In this document: positions 1,992 to 17,382 of the stretch, piece after piece | Layout of the letters: the number at the start of each line of letters is the position of its first letter | How positions within the stretch are numbered: position 1 is the stretch's first letter | Virus record (IMG/VR): IMGVR_UViG_2740892212_000021 | Length of the DNA stretch: 20,615 bases | Direction: 5' to 3' (one strand) | Source: a virus | Lineage: Duplodnaviria; Heunggongvirae; Uroviricota; Caudoviricetes | Notes under the pieces: model-generated | What the model was told of the DNA's origin: nothing | Database searches by the model: none | The model's input: only the letters and a program-made list of their open reading frames with translations | Made by a program: the position numbers and the translations under genes

Positions 1992-2892
1992 CCGAACCTC
2001 CGGTCACGACGCGGTATTCGGTACAGAAAGACGCCTGCGTACTGTTGAGCACGATGTCGGCCAGCGGTGCAGTCAGTTCGACACGCTGCACGCCTTCCAC
2101 ATGCAAAGCGGCATAAATGGCAGACAGACGGATGTCGCGCCCCAGCCGGTGCTGTGCCGTGATATACGCTTCCAGTTTTTTCACGGCGGCAGCGCGAATG
2201 GGTTCGCTTTCGGGGCCAGGGTAAAGGTAAAGCGTGGCGTTTATCTGGTATTCAACGATGGCGGCAGACTGCACGGTCACACGGTCAGCCACCGGCCTGA
2301 CGTCCTCGCCATTAAGGGCGTTACGCACCACAGCCAGCAGGTCTTCGGATGCGACACCGTTATTTTCACGTGACAGCACAGAGATAGTGACGCAGGCCGG
2401 AGACGGACTGGTGACAGAGATATCCGCGACGCGCCCGTCGGCACTGCGACCATGATACTGATAGGCACCCACCGACCCGGCGACGCTTAAGCCCTCAAAC
2501 GCCTGCTGAATACGCAGACGATAATCGGTGTCAGACTCCATCACTGCCGGTGTCGGCGGGATAGTCGAATCATCTGCCGGGGTGATAATCAGGCGCGTGG
2601 TGTTGTAATTGGCACCAATCACATCAAGGTCATTACCGGCGGCACAGGCCAGCATTACCGCCCGTGCGGCCTCATTCACACGCTGACGCCAGATAAGCTC
2701 ACGATAAGCATTTTCCTCCAGCAGTTTGACGAGAGGCTCGGATTCCAGCGTCAGGGTACGGGCAACCGCCTCCTGCTGGTCTTCCGGGTAAAGGGAAATC
2801 AGTGTCGCCTTGCGTTCGGCAAGAATGGTTTCAAAGTCCAGCTCCTCGACCACATCCGGTGCGGGTAGCTGGTTCAGGTCGATAATCGGCAT
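1984..2892 (-). CDS. J: Baseplate assembly protein J (P2 gpJ-like), 302 aa
   Basis: Translation resembles P2 gpJ; length matches P2 J as recalled; overlaps I start; W-J-I synteny. Confidence 0.9.
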   Translation of the reverse strand: MPIIDLNQLPAPDVVEELDFETILAERKATLISLYPEDQQEAVARTLTLESEPLVKLLEENAYRELIWRQRVNEAARAVMLACAAGNDLDVIGANYNTTRLIITPADDSTIPPTPAVMESDTDYRLRIQQAFEGLSVAGSVGAYQYHGRSADGRVADISVTSPSPACVTISVLSRENNGVASEDLLAVVRNALNGEDVRPVADRVTVQSAAIVEYQINATLYLYPGPESEPIRAAAVKKLEAYITAQHRLGRDIRLSAIYAALHVEGVQRVELTAPLADIVLNSTQASFCTEYRVVTGGSDE

Positions 2893-2896
2893 GGTT

Positions 2897-3244
2897 TCAA
2901 CTCACAGGGATGGTTAACGAAAGTGGCTGGCCGGTGTCGTTGTGCTGGCCGGTTAACGTGACCGTCATTCGCCCGTCAAAACTGCGCTCAGTGGTGACGG
3001 ATGACAGGGTGACGCGGGGTTCCCATTTCAGCACCGCCATGTAACAGGCGACCTTAATCTGCAACTCAAGCGCCGGGGTCTGCGGCTGGTCAATCATTGA
3101 TGCCAGCAACGAGCCGTAATCACGACGCATCACCCGTGAGCCGACCGGTGTGCGCAGGATATCGCCGATACTCTGGCTGATATGCTCAAGGTCAGTGACC
3201 GTCAGGCCATCACTGCGATTCATTCCGAGATAACGCGCAGTCAT
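2897..3244 (-). CDS. W: Baseplate assembly protein W (gp25/lysozyme-like wedge), 115 aa
   Basis: MTARYLGMNRSDG... recalled as P2 gpW; 4-nt overlap with V stop. Confidence 0.88.
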   Translation of the reverse strand: MTARYLGMNRSDGLTVTDLEHISQSIGDILRTPVGSRVMRRDYGSLLASMIDQPQTPALELQIKVACYMAVLKWEPRVTLSSVTTERSFDGRMTVTLTGQHNDTGQPLSLTIPVS

Positions 3245-3876
3245 AGAGGTCCCCCTGTTGTGCCGCCACTGTCGCCGGGGTGTTTATGGGTATGCAGTAC
3301 CTTACCGTTTGATGAGAGTTCACCGCCGGTGTGTTCAATGTTGCCGCGCATCGTCCCGCCCTTCTGTACTTCCAGCGTGCCGGTAATCAGCCTGTTGGTG
3401 CAGACCACCTCCGGTGTGTCCAGGGTGACGCGGGTTGATGCTTTCACCATGACCACCGGCACCGTGGCGGTAACAGAATCAGAAGCCGTCACGCTGGCCG
3501 TTTTAATTCCGCTTACCGTGAGTGCACTGGTTTCAGGTTCATACTCAATCACCGCTCCGTCAGGGAAACGGATATGCAGGGCATCCGCCGACGCAGACGG
3601 CGCGGGGTTATCGCCGGAATAAATCCCCGGCAGAACGAACGCCGTGTCGAGTTCACCGCCCACGGCCAGAATCAGCACCTGTTCCCCCACGGAAGGTGCC
3701 CACCATGTGCGCGAACGTCCGGCGCGATGGGTCAACCACTGAAGCCAGTCGGTGCACATGCCGCCGGTCTGCACACGGCAGCGACCGGCGTTAAGGTCGG
3801 TTTCGACGATAATGCCGGTGCGGATCATGTTGCGCAGTGCGCGCGCGAGTTCCTGAATATTTGCGAGAGTGTTCAT
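3241..3876 (-). CDS. V: Baseplate spike protein V (P2 gpV-like), 211 aa
   Basis: MNTLANIQELARALRNMIRTGIIVETDLNAGRCRVQTGG... matches P2 gpV as recalled; length equal. Confidence 0.92.
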   Translation of the reverse strand: MNTLANIQELARALRNMIRTGIIVETDLNAGRCRVQTGGMCTDWLQWLTHRAGRSRTWWAPSVGEQVLILAVGGELDTAFVLPGIYSGDNPAPSASADALHIRFPDGAVIEYEPETSALTVSGIKTASVTASDSVTATVPVVMVKASTRVTLDTPEVVCTNRLITGTLEVQKGGTMRGNIEHTGGELSSNGKVLHTHKHPGDSGGTTGGPL

Positions 3877-3942
3877 AACGGGAAGGATGCCGCCGGGTCA
3901 TACCGGCGGCAATGTGACGATGAGGTGTCGGGAATGGCACAA

Positions 3943-4395
3943 CTAACGGTCGAGGTGAGCCAGAATAATCTCTTCAATCATCTGCACATCCTCACCGGTA
4001 AAGCCGAGCAGAGGACGCGCCGGATAATCAATTTTCTTACCGTCTTTCCGGTTTTCTTCCGACAGACCGAACTGATGCACACTGGCGATTTTCGGTGACT
4101 TCCCGCCGTAAAACTCCATTGATGCCTGTTCCGGGCTGGCGCGGATATGCAAAAAACGACTGGTGATAAGTTTCGCAAACATTTTTCGCTTAACACGACC
4201 GGTCTTTTTTCTGGCGCTCTGCTGCTGGCGTGGCACGTAGGGTGTGCCGTCCGGGGCTTTCTGTGCCATCACCCGACGCTGCTGACTCTGCCGCAGACGT
4301 TTCGCCAGTTCGGCGCTCAGTCGCCGACGCCCTGACGGTGACAGCGACTCAATCAGTCCGGTGAGCCGGTCTTCAAAACGCTTAAACTCATTCAT
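3943..4395 (-). CDS. S: Tail completion / virion morphogenesis protein S (P2 gpS-like), 150 aa
   Basis: MNEFKRFEDRLTGLIESLSPSGRRRL... recalled as P2 gpS; R-S synteny. Confidence 0.88.
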   Translation of the reverse strand: MNEFKRFEDRLTGLIESLSPSGRRRLSAELAKRLRQSQQRRVMAQKAPDGTPYVPRQQQSARKKTGRVKRKMFAKLITSRFLHIRASPEQASMEFYGGKSPKIASVHQFGLSEENRKDGKKIDYPARPLLGFTGEDVQMIEEIILAHLDR

Positions 4396-10142: not shown

Positions 10143-11915
10143 ATGACCATCACCACAGACACCACTCTTTTACACGACCCGCGTCGTCAGGCGGCGCTGC
10201 TGTACTGGCAGGGGTTTTCCGTGCCGCAGATTGCCGCCATGTTGCAGATGAAACGCCCGACGGTGCAGAGCTGGAAACAGCGCGACGGCTGGGACAACGT
10301 TGCCCCCATCAGCCGTGTCGAAATGAGTCTGGAAGCGCGACTGACCCGGCTCATCATCAAACCGCAGAAAACCGGCGGTGACTTCAAGGAAATTGACCTT
10401 CTGGGACGCCAGATTGAACGACTGGCACGGGTCAACCGTTACAGTCAGACCGGCAACGAGGCAGACCTTAATCCGAACGTCGCTAACCGCAACAAAGGCG
10501 GGCGTCGCAAACCGATAAAGAATTTTTTCAGTGACGAGGCCATCGAAAAGCTGGAGCAGATTTTCTTTGAGCAGTCTTTCGAATATCAGTTGCACTGGTA
10601 TCGCGCCGGGCTTGAGCACCGCATCCGCGATATCCTGAAATCCCGCCAGATTGGCGCGACGTTTTATTTTTCCCGCGAGGCGCTGCTGCGCGCCCTGAAA
10701 ACCGGTCATAACCAGATTTTTCTGTCGGCCAGTAAAACGCAGGCGTATGTGTTCCGCGAATACATCATCGCCTTTGCCCGGCTGGTTGACGTTGACCTGA
10801 CCGGTGACCCGATTGTCCTGGGCAATAACGGCGCAAAACTGATTTTTCTCGGCACCAACTCCAACACCGCACAGAGCCATAACGGTGACCTGTACGTCGA
10901 CGAGATTTTCTGGATCCCGAATTTTCAGGTACTGCGTAAGGTGGCATCAGGTATGGCCTCACAGAGTCACCTGCGCTCGACCTATTTCTCCACCCCGTCC
11001 ACGCTGGCGCACGACGCCTACCCGTTCTGGTCAGGTGAACTGTTCAACCGGGGACGCGCCAGCGCCGCCGAACGTGTGGAAATCGACGTCAGTCATAACG
11101 CCCTTGCCGGAGGTCTTCTCTGTGCGGACGGCCAGTGGCGGCAGATTGTCACCATTGAGGACGCCCTGAAAGGTGGCTGCACACTGTTCGACATTGAGCA
11201 GCTCAAACGTGAAAACAGCGCCGACGATTTTAAAAACCTGTTCATGTGTGAATTTGTTGACGACAAGGCGTCGGTGTTCCCGTTCGAGGAGCTGCAACGC
11301 TGCATGGTCGACACGCTGGAAGAATGGGAAGACTATGCGCCGTTTGCCGCCAATCCGTTCGGCTCCCGTCCGGTATGGATTGGTTACGACCCGTCACACC
11401 GTGGCGACAGCGCCGGATGCGTGGTGCTGGCACCGCCGGTGGTGGCCGGTGGCAAATTCAGAATACTTGAGCGTCACCAGTGGAAAGGCATGGACTTTGC
11501 CACCCAGGCGGAATCCATCCGCAAACTCACCGAAAAATACAACGTCGAATACATCGGTATTGATGCCACCGGCCTCGGTGTCGGCGTGTTCCAGCTCGTG
11601 CGCTCGTTCTATCCCGCCGCGCGCGATATCCGCTACACGCCGGAAATGAAAACCGCAATGGTGCTCAAGGCAAAAGACGTTATTCGCCGTGGCTGTCTGG
11701 AATATGACGTCAGCGCCACCGACATCACCAGCTCGTTTATGGCTATCCGCAAGACCATGACCAGCAGCGGACGCAGCGCCACCTATGAGGCCAGCCGCAG
11801 CGAGGAAGCCAGCCACGCCGACCTCGCCTGGGCGACCATGCACGCTCTGTTAAATGAGCCACTCACCGCCGGTATCAGCACCCCGCTGACATCCACCATT
11901 CTGGAGTTTTACTGA
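10143..11915 (+). CDS. P: Terminase large/ATPase subunit P (P2 gpP-like), 590 aa
   Basis: ATG at 10143 preceded by GAGG at -9..-6; MTITTDTTLLHDPRRQAALLYWQGFSVPQIA... recalled as P2 P; TGATG overlap with Q start; length equals P2 P. Confidence 0.94.
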   Translation: MTITTDTTLLHDPRRQAALLYWQGFSVPQIAAMLQMKRPTVQSWKQRDGWDNVAPISRVEMSLEARLTRLIIKPQKTGGDFKEIDLLGRQIERLARVNRYSQTGNEADLNPNVANRNKGGRRKPIKNFFSDEAIEKLEQIFFEQSFEYQLHWYRAGLEHRIRDILKSRQIGATFYFSREALLRALKTGHNQIFLSASKTQAYVFREYIIAFARLVDVDLTGDPIVLGNNGAKLIFLGTNSNTAQSHNGDLYVDEIFWIPNFQVLRKVASGMASQSHLRSTYFSTPSTLAHDAYPFWSGELFNRGRASAAERVEIDVSHNALAGGLLCADGQWRQIVTIEDALKGGCTLFDIEQLKRENSADDFKNLFMCEFVDDKASVFPFEELQRCMVDTLEEWEDYAPFAANPFGSRPVWIGYDPSHRGDSAGCVVLAPPVVAGGKFRILERHQWKGMDFATQAESIRKLTEKYNVEYIGIDATGLGVGVFQLVRSFYPAARDIRYTPEMKTAMVLKAKDVIRRGCLEYDVSATDITSSFMAIRKTMTSSGRSATYEASRSEEASHADLAWATMHALLNEPLTAGISTPLTSTILEFY

Positions 11916-12949
11916 TGAGCAAGAAAAAAGGGAAAACACCGCAACCTGCGGCAAAAACAATGACCGCCAGCGCCCCGAAAATGGAGGCATTCACCTTTGG
12001 TGATCCGGTGCCGGTACTCGACCGCCGTGACATTCTGGATTATGTCGAGTGCATCAGTAACGGCAGATGGTATGAGCCACCAATCAGCTTTACCGGTCTG
12101 GCAAAAAGCCTGCGTGCTGCCGTGCATCACAGCTCACCGATTTACGTCAAACGCAATATTCTGGCCTCGACATTTATCCCGCATCCGTGGCTTTCCCAGC
12201 AGGATTTCAGCCGCTTTGTGCTGGATTTTCTGGTGTTCGGTAATGCGTTTCTGGAAAAGCGATACAGCACCACCGGTAAGGTCATCAGACTGGAAACCTC
12301 ACCGGCAAAATATACCCGCCGTGGTGTGGAAGAGGATGTTTACTGGTGGGTGCCGTCCTTCAACGAGCCGACAGCCTTCGCACCCGGCTCCGTGTTTCAC
12401 CTGCTGGAGCCGGATATTAATCAGGAGCTGTACGGCCTGCCGGAATATCTCAGCGCCCTTAACTCTGCCTGGCTGAATGAGTCGGCCACGCTGTTCCGCC
12501 GCAAGTATTACGAAAACGGCGCTCATGCCGGATACATCATGTACGTCACCGATGCCGTGCAGGATCGCAACGATATCGAAATGCTTCGCGAAAACATGGT
12601 GAAGTCGAAAGGCCGCAATAACTTTAAAAATCTGTTTCTCTATGCCCCACAGGGGAAAGCCGACGGCATTAAAATTATCCCGCTCAGTGAAGTGGCAACG
12701 AAGGACGATTTTTTTAATATCAAAAAAGCCAGCGCCGCTGACCTGCTGGACGCGCACCGCATCCCCTTTCAGTTGATGGGCGGCAAGCCGGAGAACGTCG
12801 GGTCGCTGGGTGATATTGAGAAAGTGGCAAAGGTCTTTGTCCGCAATGAGCTTATCCCGCTACAGGACAGGATCCGCGAGATAAACGGCTGGCTCGGTCA
12901 GGAGGTCATCCGCTTTAAAAACTACTCACTGGACACTGACAACGGCTGA
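11915..12949 (+). CDS. Q: Portal protein Q (P2 gpQ-like), 344 aa
   Basis: MSKKKGKTPQPAAKTMTASAPKMEAFTFGDPVP... recalled as P2 Q; coupled to P; followed by terminator and cos. Confidence 0.94.
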   Translation: MSKKKGKTPQPAAKTMTASAPKMEAFTFGDPVPVLDRRDILDYVECISNGRWYEPPISFTGLAKSLRAAVHHSSPIYVKRNILASTFIPHPWLSQQDFSRFVLDFLVFGNAFLEKRYSTTGKVIRLETSPAKYTRRGVEEDVYWWVPSFNEPTAFAPGSVFHLLEPDINQELYGLPEYLSALNSAWLNESATLFRRKYYENGAHAGYIMYVTDAVQDRNDIEMLRENMVKSKGRNNFKNLFLYAPQGKADGIKIIPLSEVATKDDFFNIKKASAADLLDAHRIPFQLMGGKPENVGSLGDIEKVAKVFVRNELIPLQDRIREINGWLGQEVIRFKNYSLDTDNG

Positions 12950-12953
12950 ACAT

Positions 12954-12977
12954 CGCCGCCTGCGGGCGGCTTTTTTA
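12954..12977 (+). terminator. Rho-independent terminator of the P-Q operon
   Basis: GC-rich hairpin GCCGCC-TGCG-GGCGGC followed by TTTTTT, 5 nt after the Q stop. Confidence 0.7.
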
Positions 12978-13118
12978 CACCCCGTCATCACGCCCTCACA
13001 CGCTCACCACAGCACAAAACACCCCGCAGACACACCAACGCCTCAACGGGCAGACTAAGCGCCTTCACGACGCGCTCAGACGCTGAAAAAATAAAATCAG
13101 CACCACCGCCAGCGCGCA

Positions 13119-13137
13119 GTGCTTTCCCCGCCTCGCC
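13119..13137. other. cos site (19-nt cohesive end core of P2-type phages)
   Basis: Plus strand reads GTGCTTTCCCCGCCTCGCC, the reverse complement of GGCGAGGCGGGGAAAGCAC, which I recall as the P2/P4 cohesive end; located just past Q as in the P2 map; coordinates hand-indexed (+/-1). Confidence 0.75.
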
Positions 13138-13291
13138 CGCCCGCTTCATGGGGCGATTTTGATGCAGTTGCATGAACATACCGAGAATGCGCCAGCACTG
13201 ACAACGCTCATAAGCAACAGGGGATGAAAACGCATGCAATTCGATGCAATAGCACATGCATGAATAGAAACGACTGTAATTAAGGGGAAAC

Positions 13292-13320
13292 AGTATAAAA
13301 ATCCGGCTAAAAATAGCCGA
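13292..13320 (-). terminator. Rho-independent terminator downstream of the 200-aa cargo ORF
   Basis: Hairpin CGGCTA-tttt-TAGCCG on the minus-strand transcript followed by a T-rich run (ATTTTTATAC), about 40 nt after the ORF stop. Confidence 0.55.
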
Positions 13321-13355
13321 CCGTTCACTAGAATCGACTATTTATTGCTTATTTT

Positions 13356-13958
13356 TCACCCCATTTTAACGAGGTGGCTCATTTTTATAGCTGTTACAGA
13401 GTCTTCATAATGAGGCACATCTACAAGAAGAAGTTCTTCATTCCCGGCAAGAGAAACAATGTGCTTTAACAGTAGAGTTTCAATTCTTGATAAATACTCT
13501 GGAACTTTTTTATGAAACCCCAGCGAGTTTTCCCTAACCCGATATGGGTTCCTTACGTGAATATGTTTTGAGCATTCATCATATAGCTTGATAAACTGTT
13601 TTTTCGTCAAAAAACCTCCCGTTAGTTTCGTCCAGCCCGTTTTGGTTACTCCTGATATTGGTACTGGATAAAAGTTAGGGTTTATCTTTTCCAACTCTTT
13701 AAATATATTCTTCGCCTTCCATACACCATCAATCTTCTTTGTAACCTTCTCGTATGCTTTTTCATGTGAAATTAGAGATGAAAATGCAATGAGCTCTAGT
13801 AGCTTCCTAAGCTGCAACGCCTCCATTTCAATTAACACTTGAAAATAAATGCCATCAATCCTTCCAGATGATAAAGCATGAAGTGTTTCAAGTCGCTTTT
13901 GACATTCAAACATTATCTTTAGATATTTTTGTCTTTTTTTCTCATTCATTAATAACAT
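13356..13958 (-). CDS. Hypothetical protein, 200 aa, low-GC cargo gene in the cos-A variable position; candidate anti-phage/exclusion function
   Basis: Intact 200-codon ORF; GC about 30-35% in hand-counted 60-nt lines versus about 55% in flanking phage genes; own terminator; occupies the position of tin/old in P2; no family recognised; Lys/Glu-rich, probably helical, no transmembrane segments. Confidence 0.7.
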   Translation of the reverse strand: MLLMNEKKRQKYLKIMFECQKRLETLHALSSGRIDGIYFQVLIEMEALQLRKLLELIAFSSLISHEKAYEKVTKKIDGVWKAKNIFKELEKINPNFYPVPISGVTKTGWTKLTGGFLTKKQFIKLYDECSKHIHVRNPYRVRENSLGFHKKVPEYLSRIETLLLKHIVSLAGNEELLLVDVPHYEDSVTAIKMSHLVKMG

Positions 13959-14173
13959 GATCTCATCATCATTCTAACGTCATGCAGAAAGCTATATTAG
14001 ACACGTCACCCGAATAAAGCTTCATTACCTAAAAACAAGACCATACCATCAAACATGAGGGGAGGCGTTGAGTTTTTTGTTTTCTCATTGGTTCCAATAC
14101 CACTAACGCCTCGCGATGCTCGTTGTTCAACCCCGCCAGCCCTGAAAACAAGTTTCAAGACTGACGGCGTTTT

Positions 14174-14380
14174 CTATAGTCTGCGTGGCGGTGGAGCAAC
14201 TCTGGACTGACGGATATAATTAAGCCGCCCGTAATTATCCCGGACTATTTCGGCACACCCGACCAGCTCGTCAGGCGTCAGATTTTCGTTGACCATAATC
14301 TGCTGTAGACGGTGAACAATAGCCATCAGCTTGATATTTTTAGTGTTATGTTGCGGTATCTCGCCCGGTATTCTGTGCAT
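14174..14380 (-). CDS. Small hypothetical protein (about 68 aa; 72 aa from the upstream ATG at 14392)
   Basis: ATG overlaps the stop of the upstream ORF (TAATG), suggesting translational coupling; no recognisable motif. Confidence 0.4.
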   Translation of the reverse strand: MHRIPGEIPQHNTKNIKLMAIVHRLQQIMVNENLTPDELVGCAEIVRDNYGRLNYIRQSRVAPPPRRL

Positions 14381-14835
14381 TATCCAAGCCACCCGTTTTG
14401 CTTTGCACGCTCAATCTGTTCATCTGAATAGTTCCATGCTCCATCCGTGGCAACCATTGCCCCGCCAGACATCCCCGTCTCTGGTGCATACATAACAGCA
14501 AGGCCGAGCTGATGCATAATTTCATGATTAATTCTGAATACCAGACCACGCTCACTAAGTTCTTTCCAGTTCACAATCTCATATGCGCCTGTATTAAGCA
14601 GCTCAATACTTAGCAAGACATAATCTTCCAGCCAGTCTGACAGGTCAGTAACATCTGTTATCCGGGCTTCAACCTTTCGCCCCGTATACACACCCTGCGC
14701 CCATTCATGCAAAATCAACGTGTCCCCGCGCTCATAATTACGGTCATTTTTCCGAAACTCTGCGCGTTTCTTTCCTTCCAGCACAAGGTCAAAATATTTT
14801 GCGTGCAGCTTTACCTCGTGAATTTTTGCCATCAT
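14380..14835 (-). CDS. DUF3850/ASCH-like protein with C-terminal HExxH-containing extension (orf91 position of P2), about 151 aa
   Basis: ATGATGA arrangement overlaps the A stop; N-terminal about 85 aa (KIHEVKLHAKYFDLVLEGKKRAEFRKNDRNYERGDTLILHEW) resembles DUF3850/ASCH-like proteins; C-terminal about 65 aa contains HEIMH. Confidence 0.7.
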   Translation of the reverse strand: MMAKIHEVKLHAKYFDLVLEGKKRAEFRKNDRNYERGDTLILHEWAQGVYTGRKVEARITDVTDLSDWLEDYVLLSIELLNTGAYEIVNWKELSERGLVFRINHEIMHQLGLAVMYAPETGMSGGAMVATDGAWNYSDEQIERAKQNGWLG

Positions 14836-17117
14836 GTCCACTCCATTACTGTTGAGAATCCCGGCCACTCATCAGCGACCGGATACGTGAATTTTTTCCC
14901 GTCATAATTTACGGTCGCGCCACGCACCAGCGCCTCAAGCTCCCATCGCTGCGGCCTGATACCGTTCTGAGCAAGGTCAACGCGGATACGGGTGATTTGC
15001 ATTCTTTCCGACCGGGTCAGTCTGGCCGATGGTGCAATTTCATGTGGTTTTAACGGGCTTCCGTTTCTTGGCTGACAATGTGGTGTTCTCAGTCCGTGTT
15101 TTAATGCACCTCTGAGCGCCCTCACAACCTCCGGGTCACTCCATTCGATAACACCGTCATCTACCAGATTAAGCACTGCTGCGGCGTGCTCAGAAGGTGT
15201 GGGAGCCGGTAACGAAGTATCACCACCGTTGAGCTTTCCACAGTTATTGACAGGACTCCGAGGCGCGGCGATGCCGCTTTTTAAAGTCAAAGGCTCAACG
15301 ACCGGAACTTTCGGCACGATGCGCCAGTCCGTCGTTCTGGTGATATGAATATGACGCGCGCCGAGATGCGGCGCGTAAATGCCGACCACTCTCTCGACTT
15401 CTTCCTCGTACTCGTTAACTTCATCCGACGGGCTACGGGCGACCCTGACAGTCTGACAATCGCGCGGGACATTTGCCCCGCCCTGCGCGCTGATATACAA
15501 CGCAAAATCGCCACTGTCTGCGGCGGCGCGTGCAGCCTCCACGCGTTCGTCAAATTCATCAGCAATGCTGACGCCGCGAGGCAATTTACGTAGCTCACGG
15601 TAAGCTCCCATTGTCGGCAGGCCAACCGTTTTAAATTGCGGGATGCGCCACGTTGACGCCCATGCGGTAACAGCCGCCGCAGTATCTTTCAGCGGTCTGC
15701 CGGTATCGTTATCGAGCTGACCATCCAGTGCATAGCCGTCGATATTTTTTGAAATGTATTTCGCGATATATCCCGCAGCACCGCCCCGGTTAAGGTGTTT
15801 TGCCTGAAAACGGTTTCGCGCGGCTCCTCTTTCGTCGCCATCCTCTTTGAGCGCATAGCGACGCATGATTTCGATAATCTGGTTACGCTGGCGTGGATTA
15901 CAAAAAAGCATCATATGCCAGTGCGGCGTTCCGTCGTGGTGTGGCTCGACGACACGCAAACCGTAGACCTGTAAATCATTATCCTTGAATGCCGTGCGCA
16001 TCAGGCTCCAGATACGGCAGAGATAACGCTGCGCATCCTTTGGATTAAATGCCTCATCATTCCAGCCGTGATTAAGCTGGACGGTTTTATTTTCGCCTTT
16101 TCCAACCTGACGTGTCGGGTGATACTTTGACGGCGCGGTAAGCGTGATAAACATCCCCACATCACCCTCTGAGGCGGCGTAACGCTCAATACCGGCAATG
16201 GTGTTCATCAGCTCCATCCGGCGAATTTCAGGATTAGAAATACTGCCCATCACCTTACTGATAAGGTCGATGCGCTCGCCGGTTTCCCTGTTTTCAAGGT
16301 CACACGATTTAAGAAATTCCAGATTTGCCTGGCGGCGCGCACGCACATCACGAATGGCATGTTTACTGGCATAAGGTGAACGGTCTTTATTGACCTCCCC
16401 GACAGCAATCAGTAACGCCTCATGCCAGCGCATACGCTGGCCTTTAAGCTGACTAATCCACCACTCATCGTTAAACAGGCGGGCAATGGCAGAATATGCC
16501 TGCCTCGTGGTCATCTGCCCTTTACGGTATTTTCTCCAGTAAAGCGGGGAAATATTGAAAGCACGTGCAGCGCCAGCAACATGACCATACAGGTGATCCT
16601 GCGCCTCATCCGTAAACAGCGATTCTTTTTCGCCATGCGCATCCACCCAGGCATCGCAGAGTTCCTCATACATCATGAAAAGCTGCGATGAGATTCGGGC
16701 GGCAAACTTTTTCAGCTCCTTGTCATTCATCCCCGGCAGGCGCGCATACTGGTCGCGCTCTGCCAGAAACAGCAACGACGCGTCGGTGTTCATTTCATGG
16801 CGCTGATTCACACGCTCAATGCGCGGCCATAAACGACGCTGAAAAGTGGATGTGAGGAAATAAAACCCGTGCACCGGGCTTTTATTGCGCCGGATGTAGT
16901 CATAGCGTGAAGTAAACAGCGAGCGCAAAAAGTAAGGCAGGCGGTTAATCGTGGATAAAACACCTTGCACCTGACGCATCTCGTCACGTGTAAGGGGTCT
17001 TTCCCGCCCGACGGCCTCGCGTGGCGCGTTCCATGCATAAGCACCGGTAAACGCCTTACCGGTGCCTGCGGCAAATGCTGACGGAGGGACAAAACGCCCG
17101 GAGGCTTTAACGGCCAT
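14832..17117 (-). CDS. A: Replication initiation protein A (rolling-circle initiator, P2 gpA-like), 761 aa
   Basis: Internal ATG at 17117 giving MAVKASGRFVPPSAFAAGTGKAF...; HxH-type Rep motif region (PHWHMMLF); length equals P2 A as recalled. Confidence 0.93.
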   Translation of the reverse strand: MAVKASGRFVPPSAFAAGTGKAFTGAYAWNAPREAVGRERPLTRDEMRQVQGVLSTINRLPYFLRSLFTSRYDYIRRNKSPVHGFYFLTSTFQRRLWPRIERVNQRHEMNTDASLLFLAERDQYARLPGMNDKELKKFAARISSQLFMMYEELCDAWVDAHGEKESLFTDEAQDHLYGHVAGAARAFNISPLYWRKYRKGQMTTRQAYSAIARLFNDEWWISQLKGQRMRWHEALLIAVGEVNKDRSPYASKHAIRDVRARRQANLEFLKSCDLENRETGERIDLISKVMGSISNPEIRRMELMNTIAGIERYAASEGDVGMFITLTAPSKYHPTRQVGKGENKTVQLNHGWNDEAFNPKDAQRYLCRIWSLMRTAFKDNDLQVYGLRVVEPHHDGTPHWHMMLFCNPRQRNQIIEIMRRYALKEDGDERGAARNRFQAKHLNRGGAAGYIAKYISKNIDGYALDGQLDNDTGRPLKDTAAAVTAWASTWRIPQFKTVGLPTMGAYRELRKLPRGVSIADEFDERVEAARAAADSGDFALYISAQGGANVPRDCQTVRVARSPSDEVNEYEEEVERVVGIYAPHLGARHIHITRTTDWRIVPKVPVVEPLTLKSGIAAPRSPVNNCGKLNGGDTSLPAPTPSEHAAAVLNLVDDGVIEWSDPEVVRALRGALKHGLRTPHCQPRNGSPLKPHEIAPSARLTRSERMQITRIRVDLAQNGIRPQRWELEALVRGATVNYDGKKFTYPVADEWPGFSTVMEWT

Positions 17118-17382
17118 ATGAGCCAAAAGCCTCTGAACAACGCCTGCTGAGTTGCTCAACCTGCGCGTTTAAATCAGCAAAAGACTTTGCGCTTCCGGTC
17201 AGAATATCGTGATGCATCAGGCCGGAAACGAGCTGGCTTAATTTCGGGTAATAACCAACCACTGCCAGCCATTCCTGACCGGCGTTTTTACCGCTTTCCG
17301 CTCTCTTTTTCTCGTGGAGAATAAACTGAAAGCTGTCACTGGTAACGACATAACGTTCGCCAATTTCAATACGAATACTCAT
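17107..17382 (-). CDS. Hypothetical early protein (P2 orf83-like position), 91 aa
   Basis: ORF directly upstream of and overlapping the A start; conserved position in the P2 early operon. Confidence 0.6.
   Translation of the reverse strand: MSIRIEIGERYVVTSDSFQFILHEKKRAESGKNAGQEWLAVVGYYPKLSQLVSGLMHHDILTGSAKSFADLNAQVEQLSRRCSEAFGSYGR

What the first reader, a model, noticed from the sequence alone, without database searches (positions are those of the whole stretch)
12950..14835. Hotspot architecture: tin/old absent, replaced by a three-ORF arrangement downstream of A
Relative to the P2 map (A, orf91, tin, old, cos as recalled), this locus has A, then an extended DUF3850-HExxH ORF, then a small coupled ORF, a spacer, the 200-aa low-GC ORF, a terminator and cos. 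No old-like ATPase/nuclease or tin-like ORF is present. The coupled pair and the cargo gene could act together as a previously undescribed system or be independent.
Basis: partly seen in the sequence, partly recalled or inferred. Interest (0 to 1): 0.6.

Follow-up and report, generated by a model that had tools for sequence, protein, structure and literature searches.

The report
P2 hotspot: backbone pair plus cargo
In this P2-like prophage the known variable "hotspot" next to the DNA-packaging site holds two conserved backbone genes and one independently mobile 197-residue gene of unknown function, not a new three-gene system, and the arrangement is already listed in a published catalogue.

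Summary
On the minus strand the order is gpA, a 151-aa DUF3850/ASCH+DUF7415 ORF with an invariant HExxH, a 68-aa translationally coupled ORF, a spacer, a 197/200-aa ORF at 36% GC, a terminator and cos. No old or tin is present.

The idea that the three ORFs may form one system is not supported. They assort independently.
- **The coupled pair is backbone.** It occurs in 348 of 5,426 complete E. coli genomes, about 94% of those carrying orf91. Reference P2 carries a truncated orf91. The pair sits beside many different cargos.
- **The small ORF stands alone elsewhere.** It occurs without orf91 in 186-like prophages.
- **The low-GC gene is the only true cargo.** The variable segment is 13177-14101. 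The gene is in 21 E. coli genomes and one phage (vB_YpM_50). Homologues occur without the pair in Enterobacter and Salmonella prophages, a Tn7-like element, plasmids and solitary chromosomal islets. Across 75 species it has no conserved neighbour.

Rousset et al. 2022 already list this arrangement, and list the cargo as untested single-gene "system 58".

The cargo family is large (2,623 clusters). It has no Pfam or PADLOC match and no significant structural neighbour, so its function is unknown. A defence role is plausible only from its location.

The parts
14832..17159 (-). gpA replication initiator (nicking endonuclease). It is the conserved left flank of the hotspot.
   Evidence: Pfam Phage_GPA E 2.1e-122. 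Annotated as replication endonuclease in matching genomes.
14380..14835 (-). orf91-long, 151 aa. It has an N-terminal DUF3850/ASCH domain (about 14605-14823) and a C-terminal DUF7415 (about 14449-14577) with an invariant FRINHEIxH motif; HEIMH lies at 14512-14526. It is translationally coupled to gpA through an ATGA overlap. It is a backbone gene of the early operon.
   Evidence: PDB 3iuw ASCH homologue, E 2.4e-13. The DUF3850 part is in 370 E. coli genomes and the DUF7415+small part in 348.
14174..14380 (-). Small 68-aa ORF coupled to orf91-long through a TAATG overlap. It is a conserved small gene of P2/186-family phages with unknown function.
   Evidence: phrog_11386 E 2.7e-41. Homologues of 79-82% aa identity occur in 186-like prophages that lack orf91. 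dN/dS 0.04. Found in 486 E. coli genomes.
14102..14172 (-). Conserved ~70-nt element with an 18-bp hairpin immediately 3' of the small ORF. Backbone homology on the A side ends exactly at its 3' end (14102).
   Evidence: MFE -30.6 kcal/mol, z -3.15. Kept in 9 copies with 3 compensatory pairs. Boundary at 14102 in all comparisons. At least 120 IMG/VR contigs carry it. No Rfam match.
13177..14101 (.). The variable (cargo) segment of the A-Q hotspot in this prophage, 925 bp. It holds an AT-rich upstream region, one gene and a terminator.
   Evidence: Homology with other P2-like loci stops at 13166-13176 on the cos side and at 14102 on the A side. GC drops to 0.35-0.40.
13356..13949 (-). Cargo gene, 197 aa (200 aa if translation starts at 13958). 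It belongs to a large uncharacterised family with no Pfam model.
   Evidence: No Pfam, NCBIfam or PADLOC hit. phrog_13799, unknown function. 2,623 clusters at 50% identity. Invariant R48, E52, H131, P135, H163 and an FYP motif. AF2 pLDDT 89.8. Listed as Rousset Table S5B system 58.
13303..13320 (-). Intrinsic-terminator-like hairpin plus T-run, 36 nt downstream of the cargo stop.
13119..13137 (-). 19-nt cos cohesive-end sequence GGCGAGGCGGGGAAAGCAC.
   Evidence: Exact match. The same 19-mer lies in the P4/P2 cos regions printed in Rousset Table S2. Its identity as the P2 cohesive end is from my own knowledge.
11915..12949 (+). Portal gene Q, the conserved right flank, followed by its terminator at 12955-12970.

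Best explanation
The interval is the known cos-proximal gpA-gpQ diversity hotspot of P2-like phages. It is made of three independently assorting modules, not one system.

(1) orf91-long (ASCH/DUF3850 + DUF7415) and (2) the 68-aa ORF are the last two genes of the phage early operon. They are translationally coupled to gpA and to each other. This is the usual backbone state; reference P2 carries a version of orf91 truncated just after the ASCH domain, where tin/old begin. A conserved hairpin element closes this backbone block.

(3) The 925-bp low-GC segment 13177-14101 is the only true cargo. It is a self-contained cassette with an AT-rich upstream region, one 197-aa gene and an intrinsic terminator. 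It was acquired horizontally and replaces tin/old.

Inferred, not shown: the cargo is transcribed on its own in the lysogen as a "moron", while the pair is expressed only during lytic growth. Also inferred: the cargo most likely gives the lysogen a competitive trait. From the locus, exclusion of other phages is the likeliest such trait (about 0.3-0.4). It would act as a cytoplasmic single-protein effector or enzyme whose candidate active site is the invariant R48/E52/H131/H163 set on a helical bundle. Its biochemical activity is unknown.
For: - **Anatomy and coupling:**
- **The pair is backbone.**
  - The DUF7415+small-ORF DNA covers at least 80% in 348 of 5,426 E. coli genomes, against 370 for the DUF3850 part.
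  - It is present in many peduoviruses, including Wphi, P24A7b, P22H4 and 9W.
  - It sits beside different cargos.
  - P2 orf91 diverges right after EDYVLL.
- **The cargo is independent.**
  - It is in only 21 E. coli genomes and one of 50,697 phage records.
  - Enterobacter prophages have A-cargo-Q with no orf91 or small ORF.
  - Salmonella 186-like prophages have A-DinI-243aa-cargo-small ORF.
  - Other homologues are solitary or on mobile elements.
  - Across 76 loci from different species no neighbour family recurs in more than 7 loci, and the immediate upstream neighbours are unrelated to each other.
  - In 120 IMG/VR loci, 31 carry the pair and none of those carries the cargo.
- **Cassette boundaries:** sharp and shared, at 14102 and about 13170. 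GC is 0.357 against 0.531. A terminator follows the gene.
- **Purifying selection on the cargo:** dN/dS 0.07.
- **Locus context:** the gpA-gpQ region is a documented hotspot rich in anti-phage systems. Besides old-tin, three of eight tested P2 hotspot systems protected (PMC9122126). Of unknown proteins in P2, 15-32% are predicted antiviral (PMC13586616).
Against: - No promoter was found for the cargo by the consensus scan on the minus strand, so independent transcription is inferred only from AT-richness and the upstream hairpin.
- No defence model matches the cargo (PADLOC).
- Outside P2-like prophages its neighbours are mostly housekeeping genes. Only a handful of the 145 immediate neighbours look defence-like, so association with defence islands is weak.
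- Similarity to HEPN toxins is no stronger than to generic helical bundles, and the Rx4-6H motif is absent.
- In the one lineage that carries all three ORFs, functional cooperation cannot be excluded by genomics alone.
Confidence: 0.8

Rival explanations
1. The three ORFs form one new multi-gene defence system: an ASCH-HExxH sensor or protease, a small adaptor and a 197-aa effector.
For: They are adjacent on one strand in 21 E. coli genomes and in phage vB_YpM_50. The first two are translationally coupled. The locus is a defence hotspot.
Against: - Independent assortment in every wider sample.
- A 224-nt spacer with a conserved hairpin, and a compositional break, separate the pair from the cargo.
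- The 22 co-occurrences are at least 98% identical over 2 kb, so they amount to one recombinant lineage.
Confidence: 0.04
2. The cargo is a lysogenic-conversion or selfish gene that is not antiviral. It could be a counter-defence factor, an orphan immunity protein or a small metabolic or regulatory enzyme. It would simply ride in a permissive insertion site.
For: - Distant homologues sit as solitary genes between housekeeping genes in many phyla, with no defence-island signal.
- One homologue lies beside an orphan cytosine methyltransferase, ERF and toprim genes near traF on a Halomonas plasmid.
- Rousset et al. note that the hotspot also carries non-defence cargo such as partition systems and a cytolethal distending toxin.
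- No PADLOC hit.
Against: - Recurrent capture in the gpA-gpQ hotspot of at least three prophage lineages (E. coli, Enterobacter, Salmonella) and in Tn7-like and plasmid cargo next to toxin-antitoxin modules. That pattern is typical of defence or addiction cargo.
- The published rate of antiviral phenotypes among unknown hotspot genes is high.
Confidence: 0.45
3. orf91-long plus the small ORF is a toxin-antitoxin or metalloprotease-substrate pair that acts as a defence module by itself.
For: Translational coupling. The HExxH is invariant in all DUF7415 sequences examined. Stand-alone DUF7415 proteins exist.
Against: - The pair is at a fixed position as part of the gpA operon in about 94% of orf91-bearing prophages, so it is not variable cargo.
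- The small ORF occurs without DUF7415.
- No peptidase, toxin-antitoxin or PADLOC family matches; the only PADLOC hit has E 0.025 over 20 residues.
- DUF7415 is only about 50 aa and AF2 gives it pLDDT below 50.
Confidence: 0.07

Closest known systems
gpA-gpQ (cos-proximal) diversity/defence hotspot of P2-like phages (Rousset et al. 2022, PMC9122126; Odegrip et al. 2006 as cited there)
   Same: Same position between gpA and portal Q next to cos. Same logic: conserved flanks with swappable, compositionally foreign cassettes. The exact gene arrangement and the cargo protein are listed in Tables S5A and S5B, the cargo as system 58 with 70 occurrences.
   Different: This cargo was neither tested nor annotated there. 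Its function and mechanism remain unknown.
P2 tin / old
   Same: They occupy the same hotspot downstream of orf91. They are also low-GC morons carried by the prophage (established P2 biology, cited).
   Different: No sequence similarity and no ATPase or TOPRIM domain. In P2 the tin/old insertion truncates orf91 after the ASCH domain and removes DUF7415 and the small ORF.
Single-gene P2-hotspot defence DUF4238 and the three-gene 3HP system (Rousset 2022)
   Same: Hotspot cargos without recognisable effector domains. DUF4238 shows that a single gene at this site can protect.
   Different: No significant similarity to any of the four proteins; best E is 0.05 in a four-sequence search. No PADLOC hit.
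HEPN-domain toxins (e.g. SO_3166, PDB 5yep; HEPN-MNT, 7ae2)
   Different: The scores equal those for generic or designed helical bundles, and all Foldseek E-values exceed 0.9. The family lacks the Rx4-6H motif. It also has an extra five-strand sheet. No HEPN Pfam hit.
ASCH / DUF3850 (PUA-like) proteins, e.g. PDB 3iuw
   Same: The N-terminal 80 residues of orf91-long match DUF3850/ASCH and PDB 3iuw at E 2.4e-13.
   Different: It is fused to DUF7415, a ~50-aa module with an invariant HExxH, no solved relative and no known function.

Membership tests
P2-like gpA-gpQ hotspot cargo cassette | Lies between gpA and portal Q, adjacent to cos | tested here: met
   Cargo at 13177-14101, cos at 13119-13137, Q ends at 12949, gpA ends at 14832.
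P2-like gpA-gpQ hotspot cargo cassette | Content varies between otherwise syntenic, near-identical prophages, with sharp shared boundaries | tested here: met
   Flanks are 94-98% identical while the 13177-14101 segment is replaced by other genes in L002, L018, L019, L020 and L021.
P2-like gpA-gpQ hotspot cargo cassette | Applies to orf91-long and the small ORF as well, i.e. they are variable cargo | tested here: not met
   They are present at a fixed position in 348 of about 370 orf91-bearing E. coli genomes. They are backbone, not cargo.
Multi-gene defence system (operational definition: conserved co-occurrence of its genes across lineages) | The three ORFs co-occur beyond one clonal recombinant | tested here: not met
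OLD family nucleases | ABC ATPase plus TOPRIM domains, or similarity to P2 Old | tested here: not met
   No such Pfam or PADLOC hits. tblastn best E is 1.1.
Tin | Sequence similarity to P2 Tin | tested here: not met
   tblastn best E is 0.053, and that hit is outside the interval.
Rst_3HP / Rst_DUF4238 (Rousset 2022) | Sequence similarity to the validated proteins | tested here: not met
   blastp gives no significant hit. PADLOC gives none.
HEPN superfamily (cargo protein) | Four-helix up-down bundle fold | tested here: inconclusive
HEPN superfamily (cargo protein) | Conserved Rx4-6H catalytic motif | tested here: not met
   In the 59-sequence alignment, invariant H131 and H163 have no conserved Arg 4-6 residues upstream, and invariant R48 has no His downstream.
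Zincin metallopeptidases (DUF7415 of orf91-long) | HExxH motif | tested here: met
   FRINHEIxH is invariant in 18 and in 15 aligned sequences down to 48% identity.
Zincin metallopeptidases (DUF7415 of orf91-long) | Zincin fold with a third metal ligand, or a match to a peptidase family | tested here: inconclusive
   No peptidase Pfam hit. The domain is about 50 aa. The AF2 model has pLDDT below 50 over residues 97-137.
ASCH / DUF3850 | Match to the family profile and to a solved member | tested here: met
   PF12961 E 3.5e-18 and PF04266 E 5e-11. PDB 3iuw E 2.4e-13. AF2 pLDDT is about 80 over residues 1-80.
Type II toxin-antitoxin pair (orf91-long + small ORF) | Obligate two-gene linkage and a match to toxin or antitoxin families | tested here: not met
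   The small ORF occurs without orf91. No toxin-antitoxin families were hit.

The most novel reading that the evidence does not exclude
The 197-aa cargo founds a new, widespread family of single-gene antiviral (or counter-defence) proteins. The family has more than 2,600 clusters at 50% identity across many phyla. It has no Pfam model and no significant structural relative among solved or viral structures. It would use an R-E-H-H site on a helical bundle, and it moves as a self-contained cassette between P2-like hotspots, Tn7-like elements, plasmids and chromosomal islets.
Probability: 0.3. Interest if true: 0.55.

Novelty: new member of a known kind. Interest (0 to 1): 0.28.

Why it matters
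The main value is corrective. When P2-like hotspots are mined for new systems, the DUF3850-DUF7415 gene and the 68-aa ORF should be treated as phage backbone, with reference P2 as the atypical truncated case. The variable cassette starts only after a conserved hairpin element. That leaves one clean, small (925 bp), easily clonable single-gene candidate. It comes from a large family that no database annotates. Testing it would be cheap, and a positive result would add a defence or counter-defence family. On present evidence it is one of hundreds of similar untested hotspot genes.

Tried and rejected
- **Defence and family libraries.** I scanned all three proteins against PADLOC, Pfam, NCBIfam and PHROGs. 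Only DUF3850/ASCH/DUF7415 and unknown-function PHROGs matched.
- **Known hotspot systems.** Identity with Rousset's 3HP or DUF4238 is rejected. Old and Tin are rejected.
- **A dedicated partner for the cargo.**
  - The 243-aa membrane protein upstream of the Salmonella and E. coli variant alleles also pairs with an unrelated 218-aa gene. It is unrelated to the Pseudomonas upstream gene.
  - Clustering of neighbours over 76 loci found no partner.
- **Fused domains.** Longer family members gave no Pfam hits. Some carry transmembrane or unknown extensions.
- **Structure of orf91-long.** DUF7415 was not modelled with confidence, so the geometry around the HExxH could not be judged.
- **Homologue search for DUF7415.** It returned only close relatives.
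- **Rfam.** No hits on the window.
- **Promoter scan.** No convincing sigma-70 promoter for the cargo.
- **Literature.** Searches for the accessions, phrog_13799 and DUF7415 returned no papers. A search for orf91/DUF3850 found only papers that mention orf91 in passing, which I did not read. The 2026 NAR paper has no held supplements.
- **Wphi annotation.** Wphi "orf91" (93 aa) and "gp92" (64 aa) are frameshifted pieces of orf91-long, not separate genes.
Full report
**1. What is in the sequence**

The window is a P2-like (Peduovirus) prophage. The region of interest reads on the minus strand.

- The early operon runs cox, orf78, B, orf80-83, A with overlapping or abutting genes. gpA ends at 14832 (Phage_GPA, E 2e-122).
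- A 151-aa ORF (14835..14380) starts with an ATG that overlaps the gpA stop as ATGA. It has an N-terminal DUF3850/ASCH domain and a C-terminal DUF7415. The N-terminus matches PDB 3iuw at E 2.4e-13. The HEIMH motif is at 14526..14512.
- A 68-aa ORF (14380..14174) begins with a TAATG overlap on the stop of the previous ORF.
- After a 224-nt spacer comes a 197-aa ORF (13949..13356), or 200 aa from 13958. Its GC is 35.7% against 53.1% for the window.
- A hairpin plus T-run follows at 13320..13303.
- The 19-nt cos sequence lies at 13137..13119. Portal gene Q ends at 12949 and has its own terminator.
- There is no similarity to P2 Old or Tin and no ATPase, TOPRIM or PADLOC hit.

**2. The ORFs are real genes**

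- All three match PHROG families strongly.
- dN/dS is 0.04 for the small ORF against a 186-like homologue. It is 0.07 for the cargo against its Enterobacter homologue.
- orf91-long keeps both domains in relatives of 48-57% identity.

**3. How the three ORFs are distributed**

The whole 2-kb arrangement is 98.7% identical in Yersinia phage vB_YpM_50. It is at least 98% identical in 21 of 5,426 complete E. coli genomes. That amounts to a single recombinant lineage. The parts behave differently when taken one at a time.

| Part | E. coli genomes |
|---|---|
| DUF3850 part of orf91 | 370 |
| DUF7415 + small ORF | 348 |
| Small ORF alone (distant search) | 486 |
| Cargo, near-identical | 21 |
| Cargo, 73%-identical allele | 7 |

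- **The long orf91 plus small ORF is the normal state.**
  - Reference P2 is the exception. Its orf91 diverges right after "EDYVLL", where the tin/old segment begins.
  - The Wphi "orf91" and "gp92" annotations are frameshifted fragments of the same long ORF.
- **The pair occurs with many cargos.**
  - Cytosine methylase, orf96 and orf98 in Wphi.
  - ParB-N, a hypothetical gene and Dam.
  - A 243-aa plus a 218-aa gene.
  - An IS1-disrupted locus.
- **The small ORF occurs without orf91.** In 186-like prophages it is 79-82% identical at the protein level.
- **The cargo occurs without the pair.**
  - Enterobacter P2-like prophages have A-cargo-Q.
  - Salmonella 186-like prophages have A-DinI-243aa-cargo-small ORF.
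- **An independent sample agrees.** In 120 IMG/VR loci, 31 carry the pair and none of those carries the cargo.

These results show the three ORFs are not a co-inherited system.

**4. Boundaries of the cassette**

- Pairwise comparisons place the A-side break at 14102 in every case. The cos-side break falls at 13166-13176. The variable segment here is therefore 13177-14101, 925 bp.
- The 71 nt between the small-ORF stop and 14102 form a conserved element with an 18-bp hairpin.
  - MFE is -30.6 kcal/mol with z -3.15.
  - Three pairs carry compensatory changes across nine copies.
  - It has no Rfam match.
- Extra copies of the element sit at internal cassette junctions in two other prophages.
- I infer that the element ends or stabilises the early-operon transcript. 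It may also act as a recombination junction.

**5. The cargo family**

- *Size and composition.*
  - A profile search finds 2,623 clusters at 50% identity, 601 of them at E below 1e-30.
  - Almost all are stand-alone proteins of about 200 aa.
  - Rare longer members carry transmembrane or unknown extensions with no Pfam match.
- *Conserved residues.* R48, E52, A55, L59, F93-Y94-P95, L114, F119, Y123, H131, P135, L159 and H163 are invariant.
- *Structure.*
  - AlphaFold gives a confident model, pLDDT 89.8 and pTM 0.88, with six helices and a small five-strand sheet.
  - Foldseek finds nothing significant in the PDB or BFVD.
  - The HEPN Rx4-6H motif is absent, so I do not place the family in HEPN.
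- *Genomic context.*
  - Homologues lie in a Tn7-like element next to TacAT.
  - One is on a 6.6-kb Paracoccus plasmid that also carries a RelE/ParE module.
  - One is on a Halomonas plasmid beside an orphan methylase, ERF and toprim genes.
  - Others are solitary genes among housekeeping genes.
- *Neighbours.*
  - Over 76 loci from different species, no neighbour family recurs in more than 7 loci.
  - The immediate upstream genes are unrelated to one another.
  - Only a few of 145 immediate neighbours look defence-like.

The gene is a self-sufficient mobile unit. Its association with defence rests mainly on its repeated capture in P2-family hotspots.

**6. What is already published**

- Rousset et al. 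2022 (PMC9122126) defined the gpA-gpQ hotspot.
- Their Table S5A lists WP_024187708 + WP_021519102 + WP_021519103, the proteins annotated at this locus in the near-identical E. coli genomes.
- Their Table S5B lists the 200-aa protein as single-gene system 58. It has 70 occurrences, no Pfam annotation and was not tested.
- They treated orf91 as part of the flank; it was cloned together with old-tin.
- The 2026 NAR survey (PMC13586616) reports that 19% of P2 elements carry only unknown genes at the locus. It also reports that 15-32% of such proteins are predicted antiviral.
- Full-text searches found no paper that mentions these accessions, phrog_13799 or DUF7415. A search for orf91/DUF3850 returned only papers with passing mentions, which I did not read.

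**7. Interpretation**

- *Shown.* The architecture, the boundaries, the independence of the modules, and the absence of old/tin and of any known defence model.
- *Inferred.* The pair is expressed with the lytic early operon, and the cargo on its own in the lysogen. The cargo gives a competitive trait, most likely phage exclusion (about 0.3-0.4). Otherwise it has a non-antiviral accessory or counter-defence role (about 0.45).
- *Unresolved.* The role of orf91-long. Its ASCH domain suggests nucleic-acid binding, from what is known of the family. The invariant HExxH in DUF7415 suggests metal binding, but the fold could not be modelled.

**8. Verdict**

The proposal of a new three-gene system is not supported. 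The arrangement is catalogued but uncharacterised. Interest is modest and rests on the cargo as a clean single-gene candidate from a large unannotated family.

Noticed in passing
window 14102-14172 (- strand); also L020:3958-4022, L022:3776-3846 and 3372-3442, L007:7045-7115: A conserved ~70-nt element with an 18-bp hairpin sits directly after the small ORF, and backbone homology ends exactly at its 3' end. Second copies lie at internal cassette junctions in other prophages. At least 120 IMG/VR contigs carry its core, some with no detectable small ORF. It has no Rfam family and no U-tract. It may be an early-operon 3' end and/or a recombination junction for cassette exchange.
   Followed up: partly
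Reference P2 (NC_001895) versus window 14380-14612: P2's annotated Orf91 is a truncated form. It shares only the ASCH/DUF3850 part and then runs into an unrelated tail at the tin/old junction. About 94% of orf91-bearing E. coli prophages have the long DUF3850+DUF7415 form followed by the 68-aa ORF.
   Followed up: yes
L002 (Escherichia phage Wphi, NC_005056) 3662-4177: Wphi 'orf91' (93 aa) and 'gp92' (64 aa) are frameshifted fragments of one orf91-long gene that read into the start of the small ORF. This is either a sequencing or annotation artefact or a real pseudogene.
   Followed up: partly
L005/L006 (E. coli), L007-L010 (Salmonella), L020 (E. coli O177:H21): A 243-aa predicted membrane protein (78% identical between E. 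coli and Salmonella) sits upstream of the 198-aa cargo homologue in some hotspots and upstream of an unrelated 218-aa gene in another. It is a second independently assorting cassette. One of these hotspots also carries a 451-aa FRG-domain protein.
   Followed up: partly
L012:7258-8978 (Enterobacter prophage hotspot): Next to the cargo homologue lies a two-gene AAA_15 ATPase plus OLD-like TOPRIM pair. This looks like a split OLD/PARIS/Gabija-type module, so the cargo can share a hotspot with a recognisable defence system.
   Followed up: no
E. coli 'complete genome' records, e.g. NZ_CP054371, NZ_CP059130, NZ_AP045833, NZ_CP182142: Many assemblies have the P2-like gpA gene at coordinate 1, with matches always at 2218-4218 or 2518-2944. 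Automated start-fixing probably took the prophage replication gene as the chromosome start.
   Followed up: no
window 12988-13257 (- strand): An 89-aa ORF spans the cos site and is annotated as a 63-aa hypothetical protein (WP_176247815) in one genome only. It is probably a spurious call over the conserved cos region.
   Followed up: no
P0096, P0098, P0112, P0119: Chimeric predicted proteins join DUF7415 to Phage_Cox or RepB N-termini. This suggests deletions that fuse early-operon genes to the DUF7415 segment in some degraded prophages.
   Followed up: no
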